NCBI GenBank assembly: GCA_020444325.1
Contig: JAHLLD010000002.1
Location: forward strand, 286,882-350,881
Direction of reading: 5' to 3'
Origin: a bacterium
GTDB lineage: Bacteria > Bacteroidota > Ignavibacteria > SZUA-365
DNA: 64,000 nt
Position numbers and translations under genes: made by a program. Below the pieces are notes generated by a model that made no database searches, was not told where the DNA came from, and worked only from the letters and a program-made list of their open reading frames with translations. Position 1 is the stretch's first letter, and every line of letters starts with the position of its first letter. Below, piece after piece: positions 1 through 28,500 of this stretch.

Positions 1-265
1 GAAAACGGACGTAGCCGTTCTCATGATTGCGCAGCAGGGGAGCGGGATCGAAGGCCTTTTCGAGAAAGGACCGGCGTTCGAGCTCTGCGCTGACCAGCGC
101 ACATTGCTTCGCGCTCGACTGCGGGGTGAGCATGCAGTAGCAGAGTTCGTAAAACCAGCGGTGCTCGGGAACGGCACGGAATTCTTCGAGTCGAACACGG
201 ATATCTGCTCCATGCTCAGCGTATTCCTTCACCAGTTCTTCGTAAATATCGCTTTCCGCTCTCAT
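1..265 (-). CDS. ogg: 8-oxoguanine DNA glycosylase / N-glycosylase-DNA lyase (Ogg2-type), 5' part only; gene continues beyond the window start
   Basis: My own translation of the minus strand from an ATG at 265..263: MRAESDIYEELVKEYAEHGADIRVRLEEFRAVPEHRWFYELCYCMLTPQSSAKQCALVSAELERRSFLEKAFDPAPLLRNHENGYVRF. The ELCYCMLTPQSSA...ALV motif resembles Ogg2 / archaeal-type 8-oxoG glycosylases. The start lies 2 nt downstream of the mutY stop. Not in the ORF track because no stop falls inside the window. Confidence 0.55.
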   Translation of the reverse strand, partial: MRAESDIYEELVKEYAEHGADIRVRLEEFRAVPEHRWFYELCYCMLTPQSSAKQCALVSAELERRSFLEKAFDPAPLLRNHENGYVRF

Positions 266-267
266 GT

Positions 268-1275
268 CTAATCCGTCATGCAGATTTTCAAATCTTCGAG
301 TCCTTCCGCATATGCGCGCAGATCTGTCACCTGGCGTCTGCCCCTGCGTGCGCGAATCATGCCGTCCCGCTGCAGCGTCGCGAGAATATCCAGCAGCCTG
401 GGACGCAGATCCGCCTCGCGTGTTGCCCCTGCAGTACCGGCAGGAGTAGTTTCCCCGGCGAACGTCTTTTCCCCGAGTGTTGCGGCGGACATGCAGTGCC
501 CCTTCGCCTGTCTGAGCAGTTCGATAATGCGTCCCCGGTAAATGCGCCGCGGTGTCTCGCGCAGCACGTTGCGTTCGGCCGGAGCCTTTTCTTCGAGCTT
601 GCCGGAAGAGGGACACTGCGTGGTGAGGGGACACTGGTCGCAGGAGGGAACGCGGGCTGTGCATATCGTGGCACCGAGATCCATGAGTGCCTGATTCCAG
701 TTGTAGTATGCGCGTTCGGGGAGGAGCAGGGCCGCTGTCTGCCATATGAGAGGCTCGGGCAGCATGTGGCTGCTGTTTCCCATGTTCTCACTCAGGCGTG
801 AAAGCACGCGCCGGATATTCACATCCACCACCGCATGCCGCTTTCTGAAGCCGAAGCAGGCGATGGCTGATGCCGTATAGCGTCCCACTCCCGGTAGTTT
901 CTGTAATTCCGCCGGATCCGAGGGCAGCGTCCCACCATACTCGTCGCGCACCATGCGTGCTGCCTCATGCAGATGCAATGCGCGGCGATTATAGCCCATT
1001 CCCGACCATGCAAGGAGTACCTGGCGCCGGGTCGCCGCTGCGAGTGCATTGATGTCTGGAAAGCGTCCCACCCATCGAGGAAAATGCTCGAGCACGCGCG
1101 CAACCTGCGTCTGCTGCAGCATGAATTCGCTTACGAGTACGTAGTAGGGATTGTCGATGTCTCGCCATGGCAGGGTGCGTGCATGACGAGTATACCAGCG
1201 GAGAAGACGTTCGCGCAGCTGTTTGCGCCTGTGGGCGGGGAAGGACCGGGATTGAACGTGGACTTGCGCCCTCAT
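268..1275 (-). CDS. mutY: A/G-specific adenine DNA glycosylase MutY
   Basis: 335 aa. HhH-GPD fold region (LPGVGRYTASAI). 4Fe-4S cluster loop C-x6-C-x2-C-x5-C (CTARVPSCDQCPLTTQC). MutY-like N-terminal YYVLVSEFMLQQTQV. Confidence 0.9.
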   Translation of the reverse strand: MRAQVHVQSRSFPAHRRKQLRERLLRWYTRHARTLPWRDIDNPYYVLVSEFMLQQTQVARVLEHFPRWVGRFPDINALAAATRRQVLLAWSGMGYNRRALHLHEAARMVRDEYGGTLPSDPAELQKLPGVGRYTASAIACFGFRKRHAVVDVNIRRVLSRLSENMGNSSHMLPEPLIWQTAALLLPERAYYNWNQALMDLGATICTARVPSCDQCPLTTQCPSSGKLEEKAPAERNVLRETPRRIYRGRIIELLRQAKGHCMSAATLGEKTFAGETTPAGTAGATREADLRPRLLDILATLQRDGMIRARRGRRQVTDLRAYAEGLEDLKICMTD

Positions 1276-1670
1276 TCGAGGTAAGGCAGAATCGGCAGTG
1301 ACCCTTCAAGCATCTCATAGGTGTGAATCTGTTCAAGTGTCACCCACTTGACATCCTCAAAGACCTTGTTCTGGATTGTACCGCTGTATTCTGTGACGAG
1401 GAAAAATGTGATCAGGAAATTCCCTCCATCCGGATACGTCGCCTGTATTGTGCGCAGTTCCTTGGCCTTCACCGGCTCGATATCGAGTTCCTCCCACAGC
1501 TCGCGCTCGAGGCATTCGCGCAGGGTTTCGCCCTGGATGAGCTTGCCGCCGGGGAATTCCCACTTGAGTCCGTAGCGATGGTTGATCCCACGCTGACAGA
1601 TGAGGAACGTCTCCCCGTCACGGATAACAGCGACAGCGACGCGTACGAGTTCTTCATGATCGTCAAACAT
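1272..1670 (-). CDS. NUDIX hydrolase, probable 8-oxo-dGTP diphosphatase (MutT-like)
   Basis: 132 aa. Canonical Nudix box GGKLIQGETLRECLERELWEELDI (GX5EX7REUXEEXGU). Its stop overlaps the mutY start by 4 nt, suggesting translational coupling. Confidence 0.75.
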   Translation of the reverse strand: MFDDHEELVRVAVAVIRDGETFLICQRGINHRYGLKWEFPGGKLIQGETLRECLERELWEELDIEPVKAKELRTIQATYPDGGNFLITFFLVTEYSGTIQNKVFEDVKWVTLEQIHTYEMLEGSLPILPYLE

Positions 1671-1953
1671 GGCAGCACCTGGAAAAAGTGTTGTAGATAG
1701 CGAGGTGAACCGGTGTCCCGAAGTTCACGACACCAACCGTTCCCTGTAGTCATGGCGGTGTGCGTGCAATATAAGAAATCTTTGTACAGAACAAAGGGAA
1801 GAAAACGGGCTCCCTCTCCGTTTTTTTTTCTCGAAACACCAGAAATAAACGGGGGAAATGTCCTTGATATCTTTCATCTTACTGCAGAAATTTCTATAAT
1901 CATCCTGATACCCTTAATCCACGTACCTACATTCCAAACAGAAGGAAGGACCA

Positions 1954-3231
1954 ATGCCGAAACTCCAGGAAAAACTGGCAGAAGTCTACGCTCCGAAACG
2001 CGATGAGATCAAGCAGCTCGTCAAGGAGCATGGCGACAAAGTCGTCTCTCAAGTAACTATCAAGCAGGTGTATGGCGGTATGCGCGGCGTAAAGGGCCTC
2101 GTCTGCGATACCTCCGTTGTTCCGCCGGACAAAGGACTTATTATTCGCGGTATCGAGCTGAAAGAGCTCACCGAGAAACTTCCCGAAGAAATTTTCTACC
2201 TCCTCCTCTCCGGATCGCTCCCGAATGACGAAGAGCTGGCTGATCTGCAGGCACAGCTGCGCGAGAAGCAGGACGTTCCCAGTTACGTTTGGGACGTGCT
2301 CAGCGCCATGCCGGCCGACTCGCATCCGATGGCCATGTTCAACACCGCCATTCTCGTCATGGAGAAGGAATCGGTGTTCCGTCAGCGCTATGACGAAGGC
2401 ATGAAGAAGGACGAGTACTGGATGGCAACGCTCGACGATGCCATTTCCATCGTCGCCAAGCTGCCGGCCATCGCCGCATGGATCTATCGCAAGCGTTTCG
2501 GCAAGGGCGAAGCCATCATGCCCGATCCGAAGCTCGACTGGGGCGCCAATTACGTGCACATGCTCGGACTCGGCGATCCCAACGGTGAATTCACCAAGTT
2601 CATGCGCCTCTACCTCGTTCTCCACAGCGACCACGAGGGTGGCAACGTCAGCGCGTTCTCGGCCGCGACGGTCAACAGCGCACTGTCCGATCTCTACTAT
2701 GCCATGTCGGCAGGACTCAACGGCCTCGCCGGTCCGCTGCATGGACTCGCGAACCAGGAATGCCTCAAGTGGATTCTCGACGTCAACAAGGAATTCGGCG
2801 GCGCACCGTCGAAAGAACAGCTCGAGAAGTTCGCGTGGGATACGCTCGATTCCGGAAAGGTGATTCCGGGTTACGGCCACGCCGTGCTGCGCATCACCGA
2901 CCCGCGCTTCGACGCCTTCCTCGCCTTCGGCAAGCAGTATTGCATGGATGATCCCGTGTTCCAGACCGTTTCCAACGTCTTTGACGTGGTCCCGGGTGTG
3001 CTGCGCCAGATCAAGAAGATCGCCGATCCCTGGCCAAACGTCGATGCCGGCTCCGGCGCCATGCTGTATCATTACGGACTCAAGGAGTTCTCCTACTACA
3101 CGGTGCTCTTCAGCGTCAGCCGCGCTCTGGGAATCGCATCCCAGGCAGTCGTCGCCCGCGCCTACGGACTCCCCATCACCCGTCCGAAATCCGTCCCCTC
3201 GTCATGGGTCAAGGATCAGATTAACAGTTAA
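1954..3231 (+). CDS. gltA: citrate synthase
   Basis: 425 aa. Strong similarity to type-I citrate synthases (GGMRG, LVLHSDHEGGNVSA, GYGHAVLR motifs). Full length. Confidence 0.92.
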   Translation: MPKLQEKLAEVYAPKRDEIKQLVKEHGDKVVSQVTIKQVYGGMRGVKGLVCDTSVVPPDKGLIIRGIELKELTEKLPEEIFYLLLSGSLPNDEELADLQAQLREKQDVPSYVWDVLSAMPADSHPMAMFNTAILVMEKESVFRQRYDEGMKKDEYWMATLDDAISIVAKLPAIAAWIYRKRFGKGEAIMPDPKLDWGANYVHMLGLGDPNGEFTKFMRLYLVLHSDHEGGNVSAFSAATVNSALSDLYYAMSAGLNGLAGPLHGLANQECLKWILDVNKEFGGAPSKEQLEKFAWDTLDSGKVIPGYGHAVLRITDPRFDAFLAFGKQYCMDDPVFQTVSNVFDVVPGVLRQIKKIADPWPNVDAGSGAMLYHYGLKEFSYYTVLFSVSRALGIASQAVVARAYGLPITRPKSVPSSWVKDQINS

Positions 3232-3260: not shown

Positions 3261-3500
3261 GGAAACCCTCGGTGTTACCGGGGGTTTCCTGCATACGGCA
3301 GATTGCAGATGACAAATTGCAGATGACAAATGGCAGATGACAAATTGCAGATGACAAATGGCAGATGGCAAATGACAAATGACCATCGTCCCCACGCAGA
3401 GCGTGTGGCCGATGAGCTAATCTGCCATCTGCGATCTGCCATCTGCAATTTGCAATTTGCAATCTGCAATCTGCAATCTGCAATCTGACATCTGCAATTT
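3261..3500. repeat. intergenic composite repeat: hairpin, direct 14-bp GCAGATGACAAA-type array, then an inverted heptamer (GCAATCT)n array
   Basis: Seen directly. A 13-bp-stem hairpin ggaaaccctcggt/accgggggtttcc at 3261-3289. About 5.5 tandem copies of [T/G]TGCAGATGACAAA at 3304-3381. A central spacer at 3383-3416, then about 12 tandem 7-mers of ATCTGC/CAATCTG at 3417-3500. The ATCTGC units are the reverse complement of the GCAGAT units on the left, giving a large imperfect palindrome. Confidence 0.85.
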
Positions 3501-6888: not shown

Positions 6889-8313
6889 CTAGAATAAGCG
6901 GCCCATCCAGTCGAGTATCCACGACGGGAAAACGCCGATCAGCAGGATGCCGACGGCTGAAAGCGCGAGTGCAAAGGCACTGCTGCCGGAAAACACCGTC
7001 TGCTGGGGCTGTTCCTCTGTCTGGAAGAACATTACCACGACGACACGGAGATAGTAGTACACCGAAATCATACTGGTAATGACACCGATAATGGTGAGCC
7101 AGGTGTAACCGCCTTCGATTGCGGCGACGAAGATGTAGTATTTCCCGAAGAAGCCCGCGAGCGGGGGGAGTCCCACCAGCGAGAACATGAATACTGCCAT
7201 CATCACCGCGAGCGTGGGACGGCGGTAATAAAGTCCTTTGAAGTTGTCGATGGCCGTGCCGCCCTGCTCACTGTTCTCGATCACCGAGGCGATGCCAAAG
7301 GCGCCGATGTTGGTGAGTGTGTAGGAGATCAGGTAGAACAGCACGCCTGCCAGACTGATCTCACCACCGACCGTGAGTCCGATAAGCATGTAGCCCGCAT
7401 GCGCAATGCTCGAGTATGCCAGCATGCGTTTGATGTTGCTCTGTGCCAGCGCCACGAGGTTTCCAATCAGCATCGAAGCGACAGAGAGGACGGCAAACAC
7501 GGTGTTGATGCTGCTCTCGGTGAACTTGAAGGTTGATGTGAAGACAAGCAGCAGGGCCGTGAAGGCCGCGGCCTTTGCGCCGGTGGACATGAAGGCGGAG
7601 ACCATCGTGGGGGAGCCTTCGTACACGTCGGGCACCCACATGTGAAAGGGGACGGCGCCGACCTTGAAGGCGAAGCCGACAAGCAGCAGTCCGACCCCTG
7701 TCAGGAACAGGGGATCGGACTTGAGTGCCTGCAGATTCTGAGCGATTTCAAGAATGTTGGTCGTACCGGTGCTGCCGTAAATCAACGCGATGCCGTAGAG
7801 AAAGAAGCCGGTGGCGAAGGCGCCGAGAAGGAAGTATTTCAGCGCGGCTTCGTTGGCTTTGAGAACGCGACGGCTGAAGCCGGCGAGCACGTAGAGGCAG
7901 ACAGACATCAGCTCGAGGCCGATAAAGGTCACGACGAGGTCGGTTCCTGTGGCAAGCGCCATCATTCCGCCGACTGCAAGGAGAATGAGATGGAAAAATT
8001 CTCCGTACGCGACACCGATTTTCGCGATGTATTCCCGGGAGAGCATTATGGTGAGTCCCGCCGCCACAAGGAATATGATATTGACAAGACTGGCGTAGCC
8101 GCCTGTCATCACCATCCCGTCGAAGGCTGTTCCACGGTGCGGGAACGTCCACACGGCCAGCGCGATGTTGCCGAGAATGCCGATGAGCGACACCCAGTAC
8201 TCCGCTGTGTGCGAATCTTTCTTCAGCGCATTGATCATGATAACGATCAACGCGAGGAGAATCGTACCGGCGACCGGTGCGGTGTTCAGCGTATCAGTGA
8301 GCAGTTGTTCCAT
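6889..8313 (-). CDS. nuoN: NADH-quinone oxidoreductase subunit N
   Basis: 474 aa polytopic membrane protein with a NuoN/ND2-like profile (TDLVVTFIGLELMSV, HMWVPDVYEGSPT). Confidence 0.9.
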   Translation of the reverse strand: MEQLLTDTLNTAPVAGTILLALIVIMINALKKDSHTAEYWVSLIGILGNIALAVWTFPHRGTAFDGMVMTGGYASLVNIIFLVAAGLTIMLSREYIAKIGVAYGEFFHLILLAVGGMMALATGTDLVVTFIGLELMSVCLYVLAGFSRRVLKANEAALKYFLLGAFATGFFLYGIALIYGSTGTTNILEIAQNLQALKSDPLFLTGVGLLLVGFAFKVGAVPFHMWVPDVYEGSPTMVSAFMSTGAKAAAFTALLLVFTSTFKFTESSINTVFAVLSVASMLIGNLVALAQSNIKRMLAYSSIAHAGYMLIGLTVGGEISLAGVLFYLISYTLTNIGAFGIASVIENSEQGGTAIDNFKGLYYRRPTLAVMMAVFMFSLVGLPPLAGFFGKYYIFVAAIEGGYTWLTIIGVITSMISVYYYLRVVVVMFFQTEEQPQQTVFSGSSAFALALSAVGILLIGVFPSWILDWMGRLF

Positions 8314-8352
8314 CGTGTATGCCTGAAATCGCAGTGTAAGGAAAAATCCTGG

Positions 8353-9879
8353 TTAGGAAAAATACAGCCACCAGATCAGGATGAAGATCGGCAGCAGTAT
8401 GGGTATTGAAAACTTGATCATGTAGCCGAAGAACGAGGGCATCTTCGCGCCCATCTGTTCGGCGATGGACTTCACCATGAAGTTCGGGGCGTTGCCAATA
8501 TACGTCATCGCACCGAAGAAGACGGCGGAAACGCTGATGGCCATCACGTACAGCGGGTGCACGCTGATCAGCTGTGACACCTGGATGTCGCTGAGCGGCA
8601 CGCTGTTTGCGGCCACCATGCTCGGGTGATATTCCACGAGCGTCTTGACCGTCATACGTACTTCCTCGGAATACTGCATGAAGTTCGGGGCGTGCAGCGC
8701 ACCGTTCGCAATGACTTCCTGCACCTGGTGAATCAGGTCGGGCTGGACGAGCAAACCGATTTCGGCGCTCAGGAAATTCAGGTACGTCGGCGCATTGTCG
8801 AGGAAGGAGGAAAGGATGCCCGTGCCCCAGTAAAACTGTCCCGGAGCCGTGATGCCGAGCGAACCGGCGTTCAGCTCGAGCCAGTCGAGGGCAGGCACCA
8901 TCGTGGCGAAGAGCCCGAGGAAGAGGAAGCCCACTTCCTTGATCGGGAAGAAATTGAAGTCGTTGGCCTTGTGCACATGCTCCTTCGTCGTGTAATAGGA
9001 ACCCGCGGCGGCGATGATCATGATGGCTTCGCGCACGAAGGGGGGATCCTGGATAAACACGGCGACGAGAATCATCAGCAGGAAGCCGATGTTGTGCAGT
9101 CCTTCCACCTTTGTCTTATCCCCGGCGTCATCCTGCTTGTGCCTGATGTCGGCGGGCATCTTCATATAGTAGAACCAGTCGATGGCGACGAATACCGCGA
9201 GAATCATGAGGATGGTCAGTCCCCAGATATCCCACACATACTCGAGCACCCAGAAAAAGGGTATGCCTTTCAGGTAGCCGAGGAAGAGCGGGGGATCGCC
9301 GATCGGGGTGAGTCCGCCACCGATGTTGCTGACGATGAAGATGAAAAAGACGATGTGGTACGCGTGCAGACGCGACTTGTTGTTGCGGAGGAAGGGACGG
9401 ATGAGAATCATCGACGCGCCGGTGGTACCGACGATATTCGCGAGTACGGCACCGATGGCGAGGATGATGGTGTTTTTAATGGGCGATGCATAGCCCTGCA
9501 GGGCGATGTGCAGCCCGCCCGCGACGATATACAGTGAACCGACGAGGGCGATGAAACTGAAGTACTCGATTCCCGAGTGCAGCATGCGCACGGGATTCTG
9601 AAGGAAAAAGACATAGTAGATGATGGTGATGAGGCCGAGTCCGATGGCCACATGCGGAAAATAATGATGCCACCAGTGTCCGTTGATGAAAGGCATGAGG
9701 GCAATGGCGAGCAGGAGAAGGATGAAGGGAATCACCATAAGGGGATCGGGCTCAATTAAATGCATTTCACCCGCCTCCGACGCGAAGGCCGGGACGTTGA
9801 AAAGCATCAGAGCCACGAGCGTGGTCATACACGCTCTGAAAATTCGGGAAAACGGTTTCAACAAGGTGCTCCTGTGCAT
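8353..9879 (-). CDS. nhaD: NhaD/ArsB-superfamily Na+/H+ antiporter-like transporter embedded in the nuo operon
   Basis: 508 aa, about 12 TM segments, ion-transporter (CitMHS/ArsB/NhaD) superfamily pattern. It sits between nuoM and nuoN, the same position as nhaD in the Rhodothermus marinus nqo10-14 operon (established knowledge). Confidence 0.75.
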   Translation of the reverse strand: MHRSTLLKPFSRIFRACMTTLVALMLFNVPAFASEAGEMHLIEPDPLMVIPFILLLLAIALMPFINGHWWHHYFPHVAIGLGLITIIYYVFFLQNPVRMLHSGIEYFSFIALVGSLYIVAGGLHIALQGYASPIKNTIILAIGAVLANIVGTTGASMILIRPFLRNNKSRLHAYHIVFFIFIVSNIGGGLTPIGDPPLFLGYLKGIPFFWVLEYVWDIWGLTILMILAVFVAIDWFYYMKMPADIRHKQDDAGDKTKVEGLHNIGFLLMILVAVFIQDPPFVREAIMIIAAAGSYYTTKEHVHKANDFNFFPIKEVGFLFLGLFATMVPALDWLELNAGSLGITAPGQFYWGTGILSSFLDNAPTYLNFLSAEIGLLVQPDLIHQVQEVIANGALHAPNFMQYSEEVRMTVKTLVEYHPSMVAANSVPLSDIQVSQLISVHPLYVMAISVSAVFFGAMTYIGNAPNFMVKSIAEQMGAKMPSFFGYMIKFSIPILLPIFILIWWLYFS

Positions 9880-11421
9880 TTACTGGTCTGAAACAGTGGT
9901 TGACAGCAATTCACCACGCTGTACCTGTTCCAGCTTGTCGACGACGCGCTGCATCGTGGGTTCGGTTTTCTCCATGAAGGTGCTCGGATAAATGCCGATC
10001 CACACGATGAAAAGCAGTATAGGCAGGAGCAGCCCGATTTCACGTGACGACAGGTCGACAAGTTTGCTGTTTTCCTCGCTGCGGGAGACACCGAACACCA
10101 CGCGCTGGAACATCCAGAGCATGTAGACGGCCGCAAAAACCACGCCCGTGGCAGCGAAGATGACGTACCAGTGCGAGCCCAGTACAGTGGAGTTGAAGGA
10201 GCCGAGGAGGATAAGGAATTCCCCGACAAAACCGTTGAGTCCGGGGAGGCCGATCGATGACAGTGTGACGATCATGAAGAACGTCGAGAACACCGGGATC
10301 TGTCGGGCGAGTCCGCCGAAATCTTCAATCATGCGCGTATGACGTCTGTCGTAAATCATGCCGACGATAAGGAAGAGTGCGCCGGTGGAGAGACCATGAT
10401 TGATCATCTGGATGAGTCCACCCTGCAAACCCTCAATCGTCATGCCGAAAATGCCGAGAAGAATGAAACCCATGTGGCTGACGGAGGAATAGGCCACAAG
10501 TTTTTTCACATCCTTCTGCACCATGGAAACGAGTGCTCCGTATATAATGCCCACCACGCCAAGCGCGGAAAGGACGGAGGCGAATTCAATGGAAGCCAGC
10601 GGGAAAAGCTGGAGGTTGAAACGGATCAGACCGTAGGTCCCCATTTTCAGCAGCACACCGGCCAGGATAACCGATCCGCCGGTGGGTGCCTGGACGTGTG
10701 CGTCCGGCAGCCAGGTGTGCAGCGGGAAGGCGGGAACCTTGATGAGAAAGCTCAGCGCAAAGGCCGCGAACATCCATCCTTGAATGTCGAGCGGAATCGT
10801 CGGCGCGATGTCGAAGAGCATGGTAATGTCGGTGGTGAACGTGCCGCCCGGAAGGGTGGAGGCATAGTAGCCCAGCCAGATAATGGCGATGAGCATGAGC
10901 AGCGAACCGACCATGGTGTAGATGAAGAACTTCACCGTGGCGTAAATGCGCTCTTTGCCGCCCCAGATACCGATGATGAAATACATCGGGATGAGGATCA
11001 ACTCCCAGAACACGTAAAACAGGAAGGTGTCGAGGGAGGAGAAGACGCCGATCATGGCCGTTTCAAGCAGCAGCATGAGTGCGACATAGGCGGGCACCTG
11101 CTTCGTCACGGATTTCCACGACGAAATCAGCACGATGGGAGTCAGGAAGGTGGTCAGCACCACCAGCAGCAGGGAAATCCCGTCGAGTCCGACATGATAG
11201 CTCACGTTGAGGGCGGGAATCCAGCTGACTTTCTCCACGAACTGCATCGCCGGATTTGCCGGGTCGTAGGCAAAGAACAGTTCCAGCGAGACGAGGAAGT
11301 TCAGCAGCGAGGCGCCGAGTCCCGTCCAGCGGGCGGCTCCGTCACTGCGGCGCGCGAGCAGCACGGCTGCGAGGCCGATGAGGGGGAGAAAAAGTACGAC
11401 GTTGAGAACGTGTGGAATCAT
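9880..11421 (-). CDS. nuoM: NADH-quinone oxidoreductase subunit M
   Basis: 513 aa. Antiporter-like complex I subunit with NuoM/ND4 motifs (FYVFWELILIPMYFIIGIWGG, HTWLPDAHVQAPTGGSVILAGVLLK). Confidence 0.92.
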   Translation of the reverse strand: MIPHVLNVVLFLPLIGLAAVLLARRSDGAARWTGLGASLLNFLVSLELFFAYDPANPAMQFVEKVSWIPALNVSYHVGLDGISLLLVVLTTFLTPIVLISSWKSVTKQVPAYVALMLLLETAMIGVFSSLDTFLFYVFWELILIPMYFIIGIWGGKERIYATVKFFIYTMVGSLLMLIAIIWLGYYASTLPGGTFTTDITMLFDIAPTIPLDIQGWMFAAFALSFLIKVPAFPLHTWLPDAHVQAPTGGSVILAGVLLKMGTYGLIRFNLQLFPLASIEFASVLSALGVVGIIYGALVSMVQKDVKKLVAYSSVSHMGFILLGIFGMTIEGLQGGLIQMINHGLSTGALFLIVGMIYDRRHTRMIEDFGGLARQIPVFSTFFMIVTLSSIGLPGLNGFVGEFLILLGSFNSTVLGSHWYVIFAATGVVFAAVYMLWMFQRVVFGVSRSEENSKLVDLSSREIGLLLPILLFIVWIGIYPSTFMEKTEPTMQRVVDKLEQVQRGELLSTTVSDQ

Positions 11422-11430
11422 CGTGTTGTA

Positions 11431-13368
11431 TCAGCTCAATATGATCAATCCGAGAACGATAACGATACCGAGAACGATCAGGGCGGCGTAACTCTGCACG
11501 ACGCCTGTCTGGATCACGCGAATACTGCGGCTGACCCATGCGGTCAGTGTTGCGACGCCGTTGACGATACCGTCAATGATGCGTACGTCGAACACGCGGA
11601 ACAGGAAGCTTTCCGAGGTCTTCACGAGGGGACGCACGACACTGCCGTTGTACCCCTCGTCGACATAATACTTGTTGGCAAGCAGGCGGTAGAGGAAACC
11701 GGTTTTCGCGGCAATCTTGTTGTCCGCTTCCGGGTTCTTCAAGAACACCGAGCGACCGAACCAGAAACCGATGAAGCCGATCGCGACGCTCACCGCCATG
11801 AGGATGTACTCGAGCGTGTGATTGTGATGCTCGGCCAGCGCCATGGTGTGCTCCGCCTGTGCGAAAATGGGATGCAGCCACTGGTGAATGGCGTTGCCGC
11901 CGCCGAGCACGGCGGGGATGCCGATGAAGCCGCCCACAATGGCCAGGAAAGCAAGCACGATGAGCGGAATGGTCATCGTGGCCGGGGATTCATGCGGATG
12001 CTTGTCTTTCGCCCAGCGCGGCTCGCCTTCAAAGGTGAGTGTGACCATGCGGAACATGTAGAATGCCGTCATCAGTGCTGCCAGCGCACCGATGCCCCAG
12101 AGCAGTACCGAGCCGTCAGCGAAGGATTTCCAGAGAATCTCATCCTTGGAGAAAAACCCTGCCAGCGGCGGGAAGCCCGCGATGGCGAAACTGGAGATGA
12201 GGAAGGTCCAGTACGTCTTCGGCATGACGCTCTTCAGTCCGCCCATGTAGCGAATGTCCTGCTCCTCGTGCATGGCATGAATCACCGAACCGGATCCGAG
12301 GAAGAGGCAGGCCTTGAAGAACGCATGCGTCATCACGTGGAAAATACCAGCGGTGAAAGCGCCCACACCGAGGGCGAGGAACATATATCCGAGCTGGCTG
12401 ACGGTAGAGTATGCCAGCACTTTCTTGATGTCGTTCTGTACGAGTCCGATAGACGCGGCCATGATGGCGGTGAGCGCACCGACGATGGCGACGACCATCA
12501 TGGTGTCAGGCGCCAGTGCGTACAGCGCGGAGTTGCGTGCCACCATGTAGACGCCGGCGGTAACCATGGTTGCGGCATGGATCAGGGCGCTGACGGGGGT
12601 GGGACCAGCCATGGCGTCGGGCAGCCAGACGAACAGCGGGATCTGCGCCGATTTTCCGGTTGCGCCGATGAAAAGCAGCAACGTGATCCAGAACACGGTG
12701 CTGTTCCCGACAGCCAGGTGTTCCGAACCCTGCATGACTTCATTGAACGTCAGCGAACCGAATTCCTTGAAGATCAGGAACATGCCGAGCATGAAGGCGA
12801 AGTCGCCGATGCGGTTGACCCAGAAGGCCTTGTTGCCCGCGTCACCCGTCCATGTAATGCCCACGCCGTCGAATTTCTTGTCGTACCAGAACCCGATCAG
12901 GAGGTAGGAACAGAGTCCGACACCTTCCCAGCCGAGGAACATCAGCACGTAGTTGTCGGCAAGGACGAGATTCAGCATGGCGAAAATGAACAGGTTCAGG
13001 TAGGTGAAAAACCTCCAGAAACTGCGGTCGCCGTGCATGTAGCCGATCGAGTAGACGTGAATGAGGAAACCGACACCCGTGACAACGAGGGTCATGAAGA
13101 TGGAAAGCTGGTCGACCTGGTAGGCGGCGGAAACCTTGAATGTGCCGGCGGCCAGCCAGGTGAACAGCGTAACCACGCTTCCACGCTCTTCGGCGGGCAT
13201 GCCAAGCATTTCGATGAAAATGCCTGCGGCTACGAGGAAGGAAAGCCCCACCGCGCCGCTGCCGATGCTTCCGATCAGCTTTTCATTCTTGATTTTCCGT
13301 CCGAACAGCCCGTTGATGAGCAGTCCGATCAGCGGAAAGAGTACGATAAGCCCGACGTATTGATGCAT
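11431..13368 (-). CDS. nuoL: NADH-quinone oxidoreductase subunit L
   Basis: 645 aa. NuoL/ND5 motifs (LGWEGVGLCSYLLIGFWY, LFVWLPDAMAGPTPVSALIHAATMVTAGVYM), plus the long C-terminal extension typical of NuoL. Confidence 0.92.
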   Translation of the reverse strand: MHQYVGLIVLFPLIGLLINGLFGRKIKNEKLIGSIGSGAVGLSFLVAAGIFIEMLGMPAEERGSVVTLFTWLAAGTFKVSAAYQVDQLSIFMTLVVTGVGFLIHVYSIGYMHGDRSFWRFFTYLNLFIFAMLNLVLADNYVLMFLGWEGVGLCSYLLIGFWYDKKFDGVGITWTGDAGNKAFWVNRIGDFAFMLGMFLIFKEFGSLTFNEVMQGSEHLAVGNSTVFWITLLLFIGATGKSAQIPLFVWLPDAMAGPTPVSALIHAATMVTAGVYMVARNSALYALAPDTMMVVAIVGALTAIMAASIGLVQNDIKKVLAYSTVSQLGYMFLALGVGAFTAGIFHVMTHAFFKACLFLGSGSVIHAMHEEQDIRYMGGLKSVMPKTYWTFLISSFAIAGFPPLAGFFSKDEILWKSFADGSVLLWGIGALAALMTAFYMFRMVTLTFEGEPRWAKDKHPHESPATMTIPLIVLAFLAIVGGFIGIPAVLGGGNAIHQWLHPIFAQAEHTMALAEHHNHTLEYILMAVSVAIGFIGFWFGRSVFLKNPEADNKIAAKTGFLYRLLANKYYVDEGYNGSVVRPLVKTSESFLFRVFDVRIIDGIVNGVATLTAWVSRSIRVIQTGVVQSYAALIVLGIVIVLGLIILS

Positions 13369-17352: not shown

Positions 17353-17428
17353 TGGAGCCATCCATCGGACTCGAACCGACGACCTGCTCATTACGAGTGA
17401 GCTGCTCTACCAACTGAGCTAGGATGGC
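17353..17428 (-). tRNA. tRNA-Thr (anticodon CGT)
   Basis: The reverse complement folds as a canonical cloverleaf: GCCATCC-TA-GCTC AGTTGGTA GAGC-A-GCTCA CTCGTAA TGAGC-AGGTC-GTCGG TTCGAGT CCGAT-GGATGGC-T-CCA. The 7/7 acceptor stem is perfect. Anticodon loop CTCGTAA gives CGU, reading ACG. CCA is encoded. Confidence 0.88.
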
Positions 17429-25532: not shown

Positions 25533-28500
25533 TTAGTTGGCTATGATCAGTTTCTGGGCGCTGCGGAACGTTCCGGTTGTCATCACCACGAAGTACACTC
25601 CCGGGCGCATGCGGTCCGCCTGGTAGCGGAAGCTGTACGCACCCGATTTGAGCATGCCGCGGTGGATGACGTCGGTTTCCACACCGAGCAGGTTGTAGAG
25701 TTTGATTTCCACATAGCTGTCACGATCGACGGATACCTGGATCTGCGTTTCGCGTCCGGTCTTTCCATCAAGGACGTTGGGACGCGGCGGTGTCAGACTG
25801 GTGATGCCGAGATCGGCGAGAGTGGTGACACCGTTGCGGGGACGAATGGTAATCGTACCGCTGGTGCCATCATCCGCGGTGATCTGTGCGATGTCGGGTT
25901 CGAGCGCAGCGTTGGAAATACTCCATTCCGTGCTTGAGGTTCGTCCGACCAGCACTTCCATTGAAATCCGAACAAGTGGACCGGCGGTGAAGCGGGAGGC
26001 GGAAACCGTCACGGTCAGGCTGTTGGCGCCTGTTCGCGCGAATTCTGCACTTCCCTGACCGGCGGAGACATGGTCGGGGTTGAGTGAGATACCGTCGAAG
26101 TTGAGATCGAAACTCAGCGTTCCGTTCTCGATTTCGCAGACGAGATCTTCAGTGACGAAGACCGGGATTTCGACGATGTCACCGGGACGCGCACTGAGCT
26201 GAGGTGCCGTACCGCCATTTTCGCTCGCACTGATCGCGAAAGCGGGACGCTCGTACTCGACATTCATCGCGACGGAAATTTCACTGCCGCAGCGATTCTC
26301 CATCGCGTAGAGGGTTGCGGCGTTGCTTTCGCCTTCCATCGGCGTGTAGAGCACGTTAACCGCAGCGCGGTCATGCGCGGGAATGGTGAGCTGGGTCTGA
26401 CCGCTTTCGAAGCTGAATGCGGAAGAACCATCAATGTGCAGTGTGAGCGTCAGGTCGACGTCACCGTTGTTCATCAATTCGGCCTGGAGCATCACCGGTT
26501 CGGTCGCACAGGTGGCGGTCGCGCCGAGCGTGTCCTGCACGAACGCGTACGACACGCGACTGAGCTGTCCGGCGAACGGAATCACCTTCGTTTCGGGGAC
26601 GCATCGCATGTCACGCACCGTGGTGACCTCAAGCACACCGCTGAAGTCACGGTCCTGCTCATCAAACGGAGGCTGCACGGCGACGGTGATTTCCTGCGAC
26701 GCACCCGCTGCCACGATGAGCGGCCAGCTGAGTGGTGCCATGAAGCGAACCGGAGAATTCGCGGGCTGAATCTGACCGCTGATCTCCAGCGGTACTGCGC
26801 CTGTATTGCGGAAGATGAGTTTCTGTTCGAGCTGGGCCTGGTCATCAGGGTGGACGAAGCCGTCGGGACAGAGAAGAATGTCACCGAAGTCCAGTGCCTG
26901 CGGTTCGAGTGTGTAACTACTGTTGATGACGGTAGCCTGCACGGGGAAGGCCGCCTGAATGTCGCAGGGCGCGCCGAACAGTGTCACCAGCCCGCTGTAA
27001 TCACCCGGCTCCGTTGCGGTGAATCGTACGATGACGTTCCGCGACTGTGAGGGTTGCAGCGTGAAGGGGAACTGCTCGGGTGGATCGTAGACGAAGCCTT
27101 CCGGAAGGAGACTGCCGTCCTGCACCGTGACCGGCGTCGGTCCGGTATTCTGTACCGAAGCCGTGATCTGACGCGATTTGCTCGTCTCACAGCTCAGGAC
27201 TTCAAGGCGTCCCTGGGGACTGACATCGGTGACCTCGAAGAAGGGTTGCACACCGCGTCCGCGCACCGTAAAGGCTACGCTGTCGCTGCAGTAGTCCGAG
27301 CTGAAGAAAATGGTCTGTGCATCGATACCGACCTGGAGGGGATTGTAGCGAATCGGGAATTCGCGGTACGCACCCGGCTCCAGCGTAATCTTGAACGGTT
27401 TTGCAAGCAGCTGGAAAGGCGAGAGAGCAGTAAAGCCATCTGTCATGACCGTGAGCCGCTTGTCGCCGGTGTTCTCGACAATGAAGCCGCGAACCACCGA
27501 ACCGTCGACACAAACGTCGCCGAAGTTGGTGCTGTAGCCGTTCTCACGCACGAGGAAGCGGGGCTCATAACGTTCGCCGCGAAGGACGACGGGGAAGGTC
27601 TCCCGGCAGTAGCCTCCGGTTCCGGCGATGATTTCGAGTTCGAGGGTATCGCTGAACTTGCCGCCCATTCCCGGACGCGCAATGACATCGATTTCACGGG
27701 AATCGTTCGCCGCTATTTCCACACCCTGTGTCGGGAAGGGGATGGGACCGAGGCGCAGTTCATATTTCGAGGCTTCCGCCAGTGCGTTGAGCGTGACAGG
27801 AAGCGGCGAATTGTTTTCGATGGTGATGACACGGCTGGGACCGCTTGCACCATCGGCGCAGGAGATGATTTCTCCAAAGTCCAGCGTTTCGGGTGTGATC
27901 GAAACCTGCGGAAGGACGCGTTCACCGGCGAGGGTGAAGTACACCGTGCTGCCGCAGGGTTTGCCGAACCATTGCACGCTGCCGCCAAAGCTGCCACCGT
28001 CGCCGAGAGGCGGTTCGAAGCGAATGTATGCCTCGAAAGGATTCATCGAATCAGGCGGGATAACGATGGGAAGGCGCAGTGCCTCATCCCACGCGAAACC
28101 GTTCGGCAGTGCCGGCAGGTCTTCGAAGCGAACGGGCTCCGTGCCTGCGTTGTAAACCTGGAGCAGCATCTTCGCACTCGGTTCGCAGTTTGCCAGCGTA
28201 ATGCTGGGCGGGGTCACCGAGGAAGTCAGCAGCTGCTGCGAGAATGTCACACCGCGGAGATCTACGCTTGCCTCGAGGTCGCAGAGATTCGCGGAAATCG
28301 TAAGTGTCTCTTCGAACAGGCCCGGTGCGGTGGGATGGAAGCGTATGGGAACCACACGGTCGGCACCCGGCTGCAGCGGGAAGGTGTTGCTGAAAGCATC
28401 GATCTCGAACGGTGCGGCCACGCCGATAGTCATCAGCAGTTCCGCCGTCCCGTTGTTGACGATGCGAATGCTCTTGGCTTCGGAATACTCACCGACGCAG

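What the first reader, a model, noticed from the sequence alone, without database searches (positions are those of the whole stretch)
1..1670. Complete 8-oxoguanine (GO) repair system in one tight operon: NUDIX(MutT-like)-mutY-ogg
On the minus strand, a NUDIX hydrolase overlaps mutY by 4 nt (ATGA), and mutY is followed after only 2 nt by an ogg-type 8-oxoG glycosylase start (my own translation: ...ELCYCMLTPQSSAKQCALVSAEL...). In E. coli the three GO-system genes (mutT, mutY, mutM) are dispersed. Here all three functional arms are translationally coupled: nucleotide-pool sanitation, A:8oxoG repair and 8oxoG:C excision. This also supports the MutT-like role of the otherwise generic NUDIX protein.
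Basis: partly seen in the sequence, partly recalled or inferred. Interest (0 to 1): 0.55.

Follow-up and report, generated by a model that had tools for sequence, protein, structure and literature searches.

The report
Three-gene 8-oxoguanine defence operon
Three tightly packed genes in an uncultured Bacteroidota/Ignavibacteria-type bacterium appear to cover all three defences against oxidised guanine, and the middle enzyme is an unusual MutY that reads DNA with a small winged-helix domain instead of the usual MutT-like domain.

Summary
On the minus strand lie a 132-aa NUDIX gene (1272..1670) and a 335-aa MutY-family gene (268..1275, ATGA overlap). Two bases further on, an Ogg gene starts and runs off the window. 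An identical contig (L001) completes the Ogg ORF. It is a 211-aa Ogg2-type glycosylase/lyase with the catalytic Lys and Asp present.

The order NUDIX, then MutY-like, then Ogg2, with -4 or +2 nt junctions, recurs in about 15 loci from Bacteroidota and Ignavibacteria MAGs. It holds down to about 40% identity and with different flanking genes. Four protein clusters fuse NUDIX and MutY-like into one ORF, still followed by Ogg2.

This MutY keeps the catalytic residues and the [4Fe-4S] cysteines but lacks the canonical MutT-like C-terminal domain. Instead it has a winged-helix domain whose best structural match is the "X domain" of the clusterless MutYX (PDB 8UUC).

The NUDIX has an intact Nudix box and is closest to MutT/NudG, but it passes no curated cut-off, so its substrate is inferred.

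Verdict: a real, conserved operon of GO-system type, apparently undescribed. It is a new variant of known components. Interest is moderate.

The parts
1272..1670 (-). NUDIX hydrolase gene (132 aa) of the MutT/NudG subfamily. The Nudix box is intact: GKLIQGETLRECLERELWEELDI.
   Evidence: The ORF is listed. It hits PF00293 at 2.4e-19 and PF14815 at 1e-11. NCBIfam best hits are PRK08999 at 100 bits, TIGR00586 mutT at 76.3 bits (cut-off 97.9) and NudG at 58 bits, all below their cut-offs. PDB best hits are 3GWY, 3HHJ, 1MUT and 2RRK. The Nudix box is invariant in 12 orthologues.
1272..1275 (-). ATGA overlap: the NUDIX stop TGA shares bases with the MutY-like start ATG.
   Evidence: The sequence is read. 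The same -4 overlap occurs in L001-L005, L084 and L086 by gene calls or ORFs.
268..1275 (-). MutY-family adenine glycosylase gene (335 aa). It combines a catalytic HhH-GPD domain, a [4Fe-4S] cysteine motif and a winged-helix C-terminal domain.
553..1221 (-). Catalytic domain (residues 19-241). It contains Glu50 in SEFMLQQTQV, Tyr95 in GMGYN, Asp151/Asn153 in VDVN, and the HhH motif.
   Evidence: In 30 homologues E50, M52-Q57, G94, Y95, N96 and N153 are invariant. These residues correspond to GsMutY Glu43, Gln48/Thr49 and Tyr88, as described in PMC12631127.
613..663 (-). [4Fe-4S] ligand motif Cys205-X6-Cys212-X2-Cys215-X5-Cys221.
   Evidence: C205, C212, C215 and C221 are invariant in alignment A2. 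There is a weak PF10576 hit. 32 of 34 near-full-length (>=280 aa) proteins with this C-terminal domain keep the motif.
271..552 (-). Winged-helix C-terminal domain (residues 242-335: three helices and three strands). Conserved motif P-x-R-x-x-R-G at its start.
263..270 (-). Junction TAG-AC-ATG: the MutY-like stop, a 2-nt spacer, and the ogg start.
   Evidence: The sequence is read. Orthologous junctions are +2 (L002-L004, L087), +8 (L005) or -4 (L007, L009-L011, L083-L085, and the contig encoding the P0268 fusion).
1..265 (-). 5' part (88 codons) of an Ogg2-type 8-oxoguanine DNA glycosylase/AP lyase gene. The remaining 123 codons lie beyond the left edge of the window.
   Evidence: The translation is and the fragment hits PF22175 at 1.7e-8. 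The complete ORF is L001:3064-3699, 211 aa, with PF22175 at 158.5 bits and PRK01229 at 179.8 bits (cut-off 183). It matches 3FHF/3KNT at about 1e-31, with GIGYKEASHFLRN (Lys), IVDRH (Asp) and a C-terminal Lys present.
1671..1953 (.). 283-nt divergent intergenic region between the NUDIX gene (-) and citrate synthase (+). This is the presumed promoter region of the operon.
   Evidence: ORF layout is. The same divergent citrate synthase neighbour appears in L001, L002, L083 and L084. The consensus scan found no sigma-70-like promoter on the operon strand, and Bacteroidota promoters are not covered by that scan.

Best explanation
This is a single transcription unit that packs three layers of defence against 8-oxoguanine (OG).

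1. A small MutT/NudG-type Nudix pyrophosphohydrolase most likely hydrolyses oxidised purine (d)NTPs such as 8-oxo-dGTP, so that they are not incorporated into DNA.
2. A [4Fe-4S] MutY-family glycosylase removes A mispaired with OG. It uses the normal MutY catalytic machinery (Glu50, Asp151, the Gln55/Thr56 contacts to OG, and the Tyr95 wedge). For its second DNA-reading module it has a C-terminal winged-helix domain like the X domain of MutYX, not the canonical MutT-like domain.
3. An Ogg2-type bifunctional glycosylase/AP lyase removes OG paired with C, the job done by MutM/Fpg in E. coli.

The ATGA overlap and the 2-nt spacer tie the three products to one mRNA and probably couple their translation.

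A plausible reason for the NUDIX-MutY coupling comes from my own knowledge of mutT/mutY genetics. MutY acting on A:OG pairs that arose from incorporated 8-oxo-dGTP fixes mutations. MutY is therefore only safe when the nucleotide pool is sanitised.

Shown here: the gene anatomy, the family and fold assignments, the conserved residues, the conservation of the trio, and the fusions. Inferred: the substrates, co-transcription, and the reason for the coupling.
For: - **Anatomy and junctions:**
- **Ogg2 is complete:** catalytic Lys and Asp and the C-terminal Lys are present, and all are conserved in 12 orthologues.
- **The MutY-like protein is closest to MutY.** It scores 236 bits against MutY, 185 against Mig and 87 against EndoIII. 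The catalytic and OG-contact residues and the four Cys are invariant.
- **The C-terminal domain is a confident winged helix.** The whole chain superposes best on the DNA-bound MutYX structure 8UUC. That enzyme has been shown experimentally to be OG:A-specific through its X domain (PMC12631127).
- **The NUDIX looks like an active enzyme.** Its Nudix box is intact and invariant across orthologues down to about 41% identity. Its best matches are MutT, NudG and a putative CTP pyrophosphohydrolase. The residue aligned with MutT Asn119 is Ser here, but Asn in the more distant orthologues and in the fusions.
- **The trio is conserved.** It recurs in about 15 MutY-anchored loci, including L085 and L087, which have unrelated flanks.
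- **Fusions exist.** Four divergent NUDIX+MutY-like single ORFs, 46-59% identical to P0162, were found. Two of the four had their contexts looked up, and in both Ogg2 follows the fusion.
- **Further links between NUDIX and OG repair.** MutY-catalytic-domain genes with an adjacent MutT-like gene recur in Acidobacteriota and Nitrospirota. One locus has NUDIX directly followed by Ogg2.
- **No internal terminator.** No terminator-like site lies on the operon strand inside the unit.
Against: - No activity has been measured for any of the three proteins.
- The NUDIX misses every NCBIfam equivalog cut-off (MutT 76.3 vs 97.9; NudG 58 vs 156). In this genome it has Ser where MutT has the OG-reading Asn119.
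- Its closest solved relative is annotated as a putative CTP pyrophosphohydrolase.
- The MutY-like protein is below the mutY equivalog cut-off (258.3 vs 286.5) and lacks the canonical OG-recognition domain.
- Its C-terminal domain shows no detectable sequence similarity to the 8UUC X domain. The MutYX OG-reading residues Gln201 and Arg209 could not be mapped.
- Most MutT-like NUDIX genes sampled at 36-48% identity have no MutY neighbour (41 of 48 loci with room). Context therefore does not define the whole subfamily.
- Only 64 kb plus one contig of this genome was seen, so other GO genes (fpg, a canonical mutY) may exist elsewhere in it.
Confidence: 0.6

Rival explanations
1. The NUDIX protein is a physical partner of the MutY-like glycosylase, and in the fused forms a domain of it. 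On this view the pair is a permuted 'MutT + MutY' machine, not two merely co-regulated enzymes. The NUDIX might add a second OG-binding module, or might couple pool sanitation to adenine excision at the same site. This rival overlaps with the best explanation and does not exclude it.
For: - The ATGA overlap is conserved in many orthologous loci.
- Four divergent natural fusions have the architecture NUDIX + MutY catalytic domain + winged helix. In both of the two fusions whose contexts were looked up, Ogg2 follows the fused gene.
- Canonical MutY is itself a fusion of an adenine glycosylase with a MutT-like domain (PMC11078426).
- The NUDIX-MutY pair persists in L086, where Ogg2 is absent.
Against: - The Nudix box is fully conserved, which points to retained hydrolase activity; in canonical MutY the equivalent motif has decayed.
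- There is no FSH loop.
- The glycosylase already has its own C-terminal reading domain.
- The AF2 model of the fusion has confident domains but a lower pTM (0.76 vs 0.88), so it gives no evidence of a fixed interface.
- Fusions are rare: 4 among thousands of homologues.
Confidence: 0.2
2. The NUDIX is a house-cleaning or RNA-directed Nudix enzyme with a different substrate, such as CTP, 5-methyl-dCTP, other modified NTPs, or RNA 5' ends. On this view the locus is a two-glycosylase BER operon plus an unrelated or loosely related neighbour, not a complete GO system.
For: - The best solved relative is a putative CTP pyrophosphohydrolase (3GWY). The RNA pyrophosphohydrolase BdRppH (3EES) and NudG (2RRK) score about as well as MutT.
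- No equivalog cut-off is passed.
- The position of MutT Asn119 is Ser in this genome.
- Most relatives at about 40% identity have no MutY neighbour.
Against: - Linkage to OG-repair glycosylases is conserved, across changing flanks and in fusions.
- One locus has NUDIX directly followed by Ogg2.
- Asn is present at the MutT-Asn119 position in the distant orthologues and in the fusions.
- From my own knowledge, E. coli NudG (Orf135) also hydrolyses oxidised nucleotides, so several of these alternative substrates would still amount to pool sanitation.
Confidence: 0.2
3. The MutY-like enzyme is not OG:A-specific. Lacking the canonical OG-recognition domain, it would act as a general A:G, T:G (Mig-like) or other-lesion glycosylase, and the operon would be a general base-excision cluster.
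For: - It is below the mutY equivalog cut-off.
- The authors of the MutYX paper themselves report reduced OG:A over G:A specificity for MutYX and suggest it may act on other lesions.
Against: - The MutY-specific SE(F/V)MLQQTQV motif, the Gln/Thr OG contacts and the Tyr wedge are invariant.
- The protein is closer to MutY than to Mig by both sequence and fold.
- The only solved enzyme with this two-domain architecture is OG:A-specific.
- Its conserved partners are an OG glycosylase and a MutT-like enzyme.
Confidence: 0.12
4. The adjacency is incidental gene packing in a compact genome and has no functional meaning.
For: The unit also runs straight into an unrelated ABC ATPase and nusB. This shows that tight spacing alone is not proof of shared function.
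Against: - The trio keeps its order and junctions down to about 40-50% identity.
- It survives complete replacement of the flanking genes (L085, L087).
- It is reinforced by gene fusions.
Confidence: 0.03

Closest known systems
E. coli GO system (MutT, MutY, MutM/Fpg)
   Same: It has the same three functional arms: sanitation of the oxidised-nucleotide pool by a Nudix enzyme, removal of A opposite OG by a MutY-family glycosylase, and removal of OG opposite C by a bifunctional glycosylase/lyase.
   Different: In E. coli the genes lie at distant loci in separate operons (PMC11078426). Here they are contiguous with -4 and +2 nt junctions. The OG:C arm is Ogg2, not Fpg. The MutY lacks the MutT-like domain. 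The MutT arm has not been demonstrated.
MutYX (Eggerthella sp., PDB 8UUC; Trasvina-Arenas et al., NAR 2025, PMC12631127)
   Different: MutYX is defined as clusterless. This protein and 32 of 34 near-full-length (>=280 aa) relatives keep Cys-X6-Cys-X2-Cys-X5-Cys. No sequence similarity between the C-terminal domains was detected. Equivalents of Gln201 and Arg209 were not established. The paper's PSI-BLAST with the X domain found only clusterless homologues.
Canonical MutY (E. coli 1KG2; G. stearothermophilus 1RRQ/6U7T)
   Same: The catalytic Glu and Asp, the MLQQTQV motif, the Tyr wedge, the HhH motif and the [4Fe-4S] ligands are shared. Identity is 35-40% over the catalytic domain.
   Different: There is no C-terminal MutT-like (PF14815) domain and no FSH loop. 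The score is below the TIGR01084 cut-off.
Ogg2 family (M. jannaschii Ogg 3FHF/3KNT, S. solfataricus 3FHG, T. maritima TM1821 3N0U)
   Same: It has the same length class (211 aa), the catalytic Lys in GxGxKEASHFLRN, the Asp in (I/V)DRH, and a C-terminal Lys. It matches 3FHF at 7.5e-32 and covers PF22175 end to end.
   Different: It is bacterial and embedded in an operon with MutY-like and NUDIX genes. It sits 3 bits below the NCBIfam PRK01229 cut-off.
MutT / NudG (Orf135) subfamily of Nudix hydrolases (1MUT, 2RRK, 3GWY, 3HHJ)
   Same: It has the same size, the KWEFPGGK motif followed by an intact GX5EX7REUXEEXGU box, and alignment over the whole chain.
   Different: The C-terminal motif is LEG(S/N), not FPPAN or PxAD. 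No equivalog cut-off is reached. The gene is translationally coupled or fused to a MutY-like gene.
mutY-yggX operon of gammaproteobacteria
   Same: It is a known case in which mutY shares an operon with an oxidative-stress partner (PMC11078426).
   Different: The partner there is YggX, an iron-trafficking protein, not another arm of the GO system.

Membership tests
Ogg2 (PF22175 / NF002305 N-glycosylase/DNA lyase) | Full-length match to the family model | tested here: met
   PF22175 scores 158.5 bits (cut-off 27) and covers 3-172 of 173 model positions. NF002305 scores 179.8 bits against a cut-off of 183, so it is marginally below the equivalog threshold.
Ogg2 (PF22175 / NF002305 N-glycosylase/DNA lyase) | Catalytic Lys after the HhH motif, catalytic Asp, and C-terminal Lys | tested here: met
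   GIGYKEASHFLRN, AIVDRHI and the terminal ...LLK align with the same residues of MjaOgg. They are conserved in 12 orthologues. The roles of these residues are taken from my own knowledge of the MjaOgg structures.
Ogg2 (PF22175 / NF002305 N-glycosylase/DNA lyase) | 8-oxoG excision and AP-lyase activity | not testable with these tools
   This needs a biochemical assay.
Canonical MutY (TIGR01084; HhH-GPD + PF14815) | Catalytic Glu in SE(V/I)MLQQTQV and catalytic Asp in (L/V)DGN | tested here: met
   E50 and M52-Q57 are invariant. D151 lies in VDVN and N153 is invariant.
Canonical MutY (TIGR01084; HhH-GPD + PF14815) | Cys-X6-Cys-X2-Cys-X5-Cys [4Fe-4S] ligands | tested here: met
   C205, C212, C215 and C221 are invariant in 30 homologues.
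Canonical MutY (TIGR01084; HhH-GPD + PF14815) | C-terminal MutT-like (NUDIX fold) OG-recognition domain with FSH loop | tested here: not met
   The 335-aa protein has no PF14815 or PF00293 hit. The model shows a winged helix of three helices and three strands. None of the 120 best homologues carries PF14815.
Canonical MutY (TIGR01084; HhH-GPD + PF14815) | Score above the NCBIfam equivalog cut-off | tested here: not met
   The score is 258.3 bits against a cut-off of 286.5.
MutYX (PMC12631127; PDB 8UUC) | Small C-terminal 'X' domain (about 67 aa, three helices and three short strands) in place of the MutT-like domain | tested here: met
MutYX (PMC12631127; PDB 8UUC) | Absence of the [4Fe-4S] cluster, with compensating helices | tested here: not met
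   All four Cys ligands are present and invariant. By this defining feature the protein is not a MutYX.
MutYX (PMC12631127; PDB 8UUC) | OG-recognition pair Gln201/Arg209 at the connector/X-domain boundary | tested here: inconclusive
   Invariant R244 and R247 sit at the start of the first helix of the domain, which is a comparable place. No residue-level alignment to 8UUC was available, and no conserved Gln lies upstream.
MutYX (PMC12631127; PDB 8UUC) | Sequence homology of the X domain | tested here: not met
   The C-terminal-domain profile A3 does not hit 8UUC at E <= 10. Full-length and profile alignments to 8UUC stop at the catalytic domain.
MutT (TIGR00586 / NF008044, 8-oxo-dGTP diphosphatase) | Nudix box GX5EX7REUXEEXGU | tested here: met
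   The box is GKLIQGETLRECLERELWEELDI, with only the penultimate G replaced by D. The Glu and Arg residues are invariant in 12 orthologues.
MutT (TIGR00586 / NF008044, 8-oxo-dGTP diphosphatase) | Score above the equivalog cut-off | tested here: not met
   TIGR00586 scores 76.3 against 97.9, NF008044 scores 66.1 against 148, and NudG NF007834 scores 58 against 156.
MutT (TIGR00586 / NF008044, 8-oxo-dGTP diphosphatase) | Asn119 (FPPAN), which reads the 8-oxoG base in E. coli MutT (role from my own knowledge) | tested here: inconclusive
   The residue aligned with Asn119 is Ser124 in this genome. It is Asn ('LEGN') in the more distant orthologues and in the fusions.
MutT (TIGR00586 / NF008044, 8-oxo-dGTP diphosphatase) | Preference for 8-oxo-dGTP | not testable with these tools
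   This needs enzyme kinetics or mutT complementation.
Operon (single transcription unit) | Same strand, overlapping or near-abutting ORFs, and no internal terminator | tested here: met
   The junctions are -4 and +2 nt. No terminator-like site lies on the operon strand within L001:1659-4523.
Operon (single transcription unit) | One mRNA covering all genes | not testable with these tools
   No transcriptome data are available.

The most novel reading that the evidence does not exclude
A clade of Bacteroidota/Ignavibacteria-type bacteria carries a previously undescribed form of MutY with three features:
- It retains the [4Fe-4S] cluster.
- It reads DNA with a MutYX-like winged-helix domain. It could therefore represent the cluster-containing state from which clusterless MutYX arose.
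- It works as a unit with an enzymatically live MutT-type Nudix protein that is translationally coupled or, in some lineages, fused to its N-terminus.

Together with the MutY-catalytic-domain-only genes followed by a separate MutT-like gene in Acidobacteriota and Nitrospirota, this would give living examples of the unfused and alternatively fused states. Those states bear on the proposed origin of canonical MutY by fusion of an adenine glycosylase with MutT.
Probability: 0.25. Interest if true: 0.7.

Novelty: new variant of a known kind. Interest (0 to 1): 0.55.

Why it matters
The GO system is a textbook example of a pathway whose genes are scattered, and its evolutionary origin is described as unknown (PMC11078426). 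Here all three arms sit in one conserved, translationally coupled unit, which offers three things.

First, it is a natural handle for assigning function to an otherwise generic Nudix protein.

Second, it shows that the winged-helix 'X-type' reading domain, described in 2025 only for clusterless MutYX, also occurs with an intact Fe-S motif. That separates the question of what the cluster is for from the question of how OG is read.

Third, the NUDIX-MutY fusions here, and the adjacent short-MutY and MutT gene pairs in other phyla, are concrete test cases for the idea that canonical MutY arose by fusion of an adenine glycosylase with MutT.

The operon may also be useful in practice. It could serve as a compact three-gene cassette for complementing GO-deficient strains.

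Tried and rejected
- **Exact look-up of the MutY-like protein.** It found no contig, although a 100%-identical cluster exists. The NUDIX look-up succeeded and gave L001.
- **The NUDIX as a split-off MutY C-terminal domain.** I considered this because the NUDIX hits PF14815. I rejected it for four reasons. The Nudix box is intact and conserved. There is no FSH loop. The gene lies upstream, not downstream. The glycosylase has its own C-terminal domain.
- **Sequence link between the C-terminal domain and the MutYX X domain.** The A3 profile against the PDB at E <= 10 returned only weak MarR/Fur/DtxR-type winged-helix hits and not 8UUC. A relative with degraded cluster ligands (P0186) also aligns to 8UUC only over the catalytic domain. 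The supplementary alignment of the MutYX paper is not held.
- **Metagenome scan anchored on the NUDIX.** It was cut at 600 candidate stretches and returned only relatives at 36-48% identity. I therefore used it as a control, not as a census.
- **AF2 model of a natural fusion (P0162).** The domains are confident, but pTM is 0.76 and no PAE is available. I draw no conclusion about an interface.
- **Scans with nothing informative.** Rfam found only a tRNA at 17356-17428. The sigma-70 promoter and terminator scans found nothing above shuffled expectation.
- **Literature.** Four full-text searches found no description of a clustered GO operon, an N-terminal NUDIX-MutY fusion, or a cluster-containing X-type MutY. 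Absence from that library is not proof of absence.


Full report
**1. What is in the sequence**

On the minus strand of the window, a 132-aa ORF occupies 1272..1670 and a 335-aa ORF occupies 268..1275. The first ORF's stop and the second ORF's start share ATGA at 1272..1275. The 335-aa ORF ends with TAG at 268..270. Two bases later, an ATG at 263..265 opens an ORF that leaves the window at base 1.

Upstream of the first gene lies a 283-nt gap to a divergently transcribed citrate synthase gene (1954..3231, + strand). The unit therefore starts at the NUDIX gene.

**2. Completing the third gene**

An exact look-up of the NUDIX protein returned a 17.6-kb Logan contig, L001. It is 100% identical to the window over all 1800 compared bases and extends past the window's left edge. 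In L001 the third ORF is 211 aa (L001:3064-3699).

This ORF matches the Ogg-HhH model end to end. PF22175 scores 158.5 bits and covers 3-172 of 173 positions. It scores 179.8 bits on the NCBIfam N-glycosylase/DNA lyase equivalog, against a cut-off of 183. It aligns at 7.5e-32 with the Methanocaldococcus jannaschii Ogg structures 3FHF and 3KNT. The Lys of GIGYKEASHFLRN, the Asp of IVDRH and the C-terminal Lys are all present.

It is an Ogg2-type enzyme.

**3. The middle gene is a MutY, but not a canonical one**

- **Family placement.** The 335-aa protein hits HhH-GPD and HhH. It matches the mutY model TIGR01084 at 258.3 bits, but only over residues 19-241 and below the 286.5 cut-off. A profile of 30 homologues scores 236 bits on E. 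coli MutY, 185 on the Mig thymine glycosylase and 87 on endonuclease III.
- **Conserved residues.** The following are invariant: Glu50 within SEFMLQQTQV, Gln55/Thr56, Tyr95 in GMGYN, Asn153 in VDVN, and the four cysteines C205-X6-C212-X2-C215-X5-C221. These correspond to the catalytic Glu, the Watson-Crick-face OG contacts, the intercalating Tyr and the [4Fe-4S] ligands, as described for GsMutY and MutYX (PMC12631127).
- **What is missing.** The C-terminal MutT-like domain (PF14815) is absent here and in all 120 best homologues.
- **The model.** An AlphaFold model built on the 30-sequence alignment is confident (pLDDT 92, pTM 0.88). Residues 243-333 fold as three helices and three strands, which is a winged helix.
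- **Precedent.** MutYX was described in 2025 as a clusterless adenine glycosylase. Its 67-residue 'X domain' has three helices and three short strands and resembles TFIIIC, cullin and LmrR winged helices. It replaces the MutT-like domain and reads OG through Gln201 and Arg209.

The protein here therefore has the MutYX architecture while keeping the Fe-S ligands that define canonical MutY.

Limits on this conclusion: no sequence similarity between the two C-terminal domains could be detected. I could not map Gln201 or Arg209. The invariant P242-x-R244-x-x-R247-G248 at the start of the domain is only a candidate equivalent.

A profile of the C-terminal domain finds 464 clusters (at the 50%-identity level) among 1.84 billion representatives, almost all at the C-terminus of ~300-aa MutY-like proteins or in fragments of them. 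Of the 34 near-full-length (>=280 aa) proteins, 32 keep the exact Cys motif. P0198 has altered Cys spacing. P0186 has lost two ligands. The catalytic Asp position is Asp in 230 and Glu in 12 of 244 relatives, a variation also reported within MutYX.

**4. The first gene**

The 132-aa protein is a NUDIX hydrolase (PF00293, 2.4e-19) with an intact Nudix box. Its best curated matches are MutT-type models and NudG, all below their cut-offs. Its best solved relatives are a Bacteroides putative CTP pyrophosphohydrolase (3GWY), Bartonella MutT (3HHJ), BdRppH (3EES), E. coli MutT (1MUT) and NudG (2RRK).

In the alignment to E. coli MutT, FPPANEPVI pairs with MLEGSLPIL. MutT Asn119 therefore corresponds to Ser124 here. 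More distant orthologues and the fusions have Asn at this position ('LEGN'). The Nudix-box Glu and Arg residues are invariant in 12 orthologues down to about 41% identity.

This argues for a live hydrolase and not a degenerate binding module like the canonical MutY C-terminal domain, whose Nudix motif has decayed (PMC5389931). The substrate cannot be read from sequence.

**5. Conservation and fusions**

- **MutY-anchored scan.** A scan of one genome per species, anchored on the MutY-like protein, returned 80 loci. Probing these and the looked-up contigs with tblastn shows NUDIX, then MutY-like, then Ogg2 in L001-L011 (Bacteroidota, Ignavibacteriaceae and similar MAGs). NUDIX identity falls to 40% and Ogg2 identity to 45%.
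- **Pre-computed gene calls.** These show the same trio in L002, L083 (Ignavibacteriae GCA_016218045.1), L084 and L085. L086 has the NUDIX-MutY-like pair without Ogg2. L085 has entirely different flanking genes.
- **Junctions.** NUDIX/MutY is mostly -4 nt. MutY/Ogg2 is +2 or -4 nt.
- **Tally.** Among 87 MutY-anchored loci, 15 have an upstream NUDIX, and 13 of these also have Ogg2 downstream. One further locus, L010, has Ogg2 downstream but is cut off at its upstream end.
- **Fusions.** The C-terminal-domain search also turned up single ORFs of 425-437 aa with the architecture NUDIX + MutY catalytic domain + winged helix (P0162, P0168). A follow-up search added P0268 and P0269. The other three are 46-59% identical to P0162. 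Pfam confirms the architecture. Two of the four fusions had their contexts looked up, and in both the fused gene is followed by Ogg2.
- **Control.** A metagenome scan anchored on the NUDIX returned only relatives at 36-48% identity. Of 48 loci with room on both sides, 6 have a MutY-like gene immediately downstream (2 of them also with Ogg2). One has Ogg2 directly downstream. The other 41 have neither.

The linkage is therefore recurrent and far above random expectation. It characterises particular clades, not all MutT-like proteins.

**6. Related arrangements elsewhere**

In 17 of the MutY-anchored loci, mostly Acidobacteriota/Vicinamibacterales plus Nitrospirota, the MutY-like ORF ends right after the catalytic domain, at about 230-260 aa. 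It is followed, sometimes with overlap, by a separate ORF encoding a MutT-like protein with an intact Nudix box and an FPPAD motif. One Bipolaricaulota MutY (L066) has a fused C-terminal Nudix domain that retains both an intact Nudix box and a YSH motif at the FSH position.

The accepted view is that canonical MutY arose by fusion of an adenine glycosylase with a MutT-like domain (PMC11078426). These arrangements look like unfused, alternatively ordered and intermediate states of that association. That is an inference, not something shown here.

**7. Mechanism proposed**

The locus most likely encodes three coupled activities on one mRNA:
- a pool-sanitising Nudix enzyme,
- an OG:A adenine glycosylase that uses a winged-helix reader,
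- an OG:C glycosylase/lyase.

No terminator-like site interrupts the unit on its strand. The unit continues with a 4-nt overlap into a FecE/HmuV-like ABC ATPase gene and then nusB. Tight spacing alone is therefore not proof of common function. The argument rests on conservation and on the fusions.

A rationale for coupling NUDIX to MutY comes from my own knowledge and is echoed in the abstract of PMC13511376. MutY excision of A opposite an OG that was incorporated from 8-oxo-dGTP fixes mutations, so MutY is safest when MutT activity is guaranteed.

**8. Comparison with what is known, and novelty**

In E. coli the GO genes lie at distant loci in separate operons, and the only noted MutY operon partner is YggX (PMC11078426). 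Four full-text searches found none of the following:
- a description of a clustered MutT-MutY-Ogg operon,
- an N-terminal NUDIX-MutY fusion,
- an Fe-S-containing MutY with an X-type domain.

The MutYX authors report that PSI-BLAST with the X domain finds only clusterless proteins. The Lost City MutY survey discarded candidates lacking the canonical C-terminal domain.

Every component belongs to a known family, and nothing is categorically new. The combination is a new variant of known kinds.

**9. Caveats**

- No biochemistry or transcript data exist for this locus.
- The NUDIX substrate is inferred.
- The relation of the C-terminal domain to MutYX is at the fold level only.
- The loci sampled are biased toward relatives of the query.
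- Only 64 kb plus one contig of the source genome was examined. The rest of the window is ordinary chromosome (YjeF, Nuo subunits, anthranilate synthase, MetK and others). Other GO genes may exist elsewhere in that genome.

Noticed in passing
window 3297-3498: The gap between citrate synthase and ychF holds two heptamer-based tandem arrays in opposite orientation. One is (GCAGATGACAAATG) x5.6 at 3305-3383. The other is (AATCTGC) x11.4 at 3419-3498, which is the reverse complement of GCAGATT. The purpose is unknown.
   Followed up: partly
L001:3696-4523 (just beyond the window's left edge): A 275-aa ABC ATPase of the heme/corrinoid/ferric-siderophore type (HmuV/FecE-like) overlaps the ogg stop by 4 nt and is followed by nusB. 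No permease or binding-protein gene is adjacent. The same gene follows ogg in L002, L004-L006 and L083. L084 has an Fe-ADH gene inserted in between. In L085, L087 and the P0268 context it is replaced by a saccharopine-dehydrogenase-like gene.
   Followed up: partly
L016, L023, L035, L039, L042, L049, L052, L054, L058, L064, L069, L070, L077, L078, L081: In these 15 loci (one search counts 17 of this kind in all), from Acidobacteriota (mostly Vicinamibacterales) and Nitrospirota (including Nitrospira defluvii), a MutY catalytic-domain-only ORF (about 230-260 aa, Fe-S motif present) is followed by a separate MutT-like ORF, sometimes overlapping it. That ORF has an intact Nudix box and an FPPAD motif. 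The gene order is the same as the domain order of canonical MutY.
   Followed up: partly
L066:4977-6146: A Bipolaricaulota MutY of 390 aa has a fused C-terminal Nudix-fold domain. That domain keeps an apparently intact Nudix box (GKRRPLESLEDCVRREIFEEVNI) together with HGYSH at the position of the canonical H-x-FSH OG-reading loop.
   Followed up: no
L089:3490-4581: In one metagenome contig a MutT-like NUDIX gene is followed directly by an Ogg2 gene, with no MutY-like gene between them.
   Followed up: no
protein P0186 (309 aa): This MutY-like protein has the same winged-helix C-terminal domain but has lost two of the four Fe-S cysteine ligands (CTEIAPRYDVCPLKKAGLY). It is a possible independent clusterless derivative within this family.
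   Followed up: partly
window 6892-13368 (- strand): A CitMHS_2 transporter-like gene (8356-9879, 450.7 bits) sits between NuoM/N-type (Proton_antipo_M) genes, next to a NuoL-type gene. This is an unusual insertion in a complex-I-like antiporter-subunit cluster.
   Followed up: no
window 25536-30311 (- strand): A 1592-aa protein has many HYDIN/ASH/Cep192-type Ig-like repeats and an InlB B-repeat-like domain. It is probably a large surface protein.
   Followed up: no
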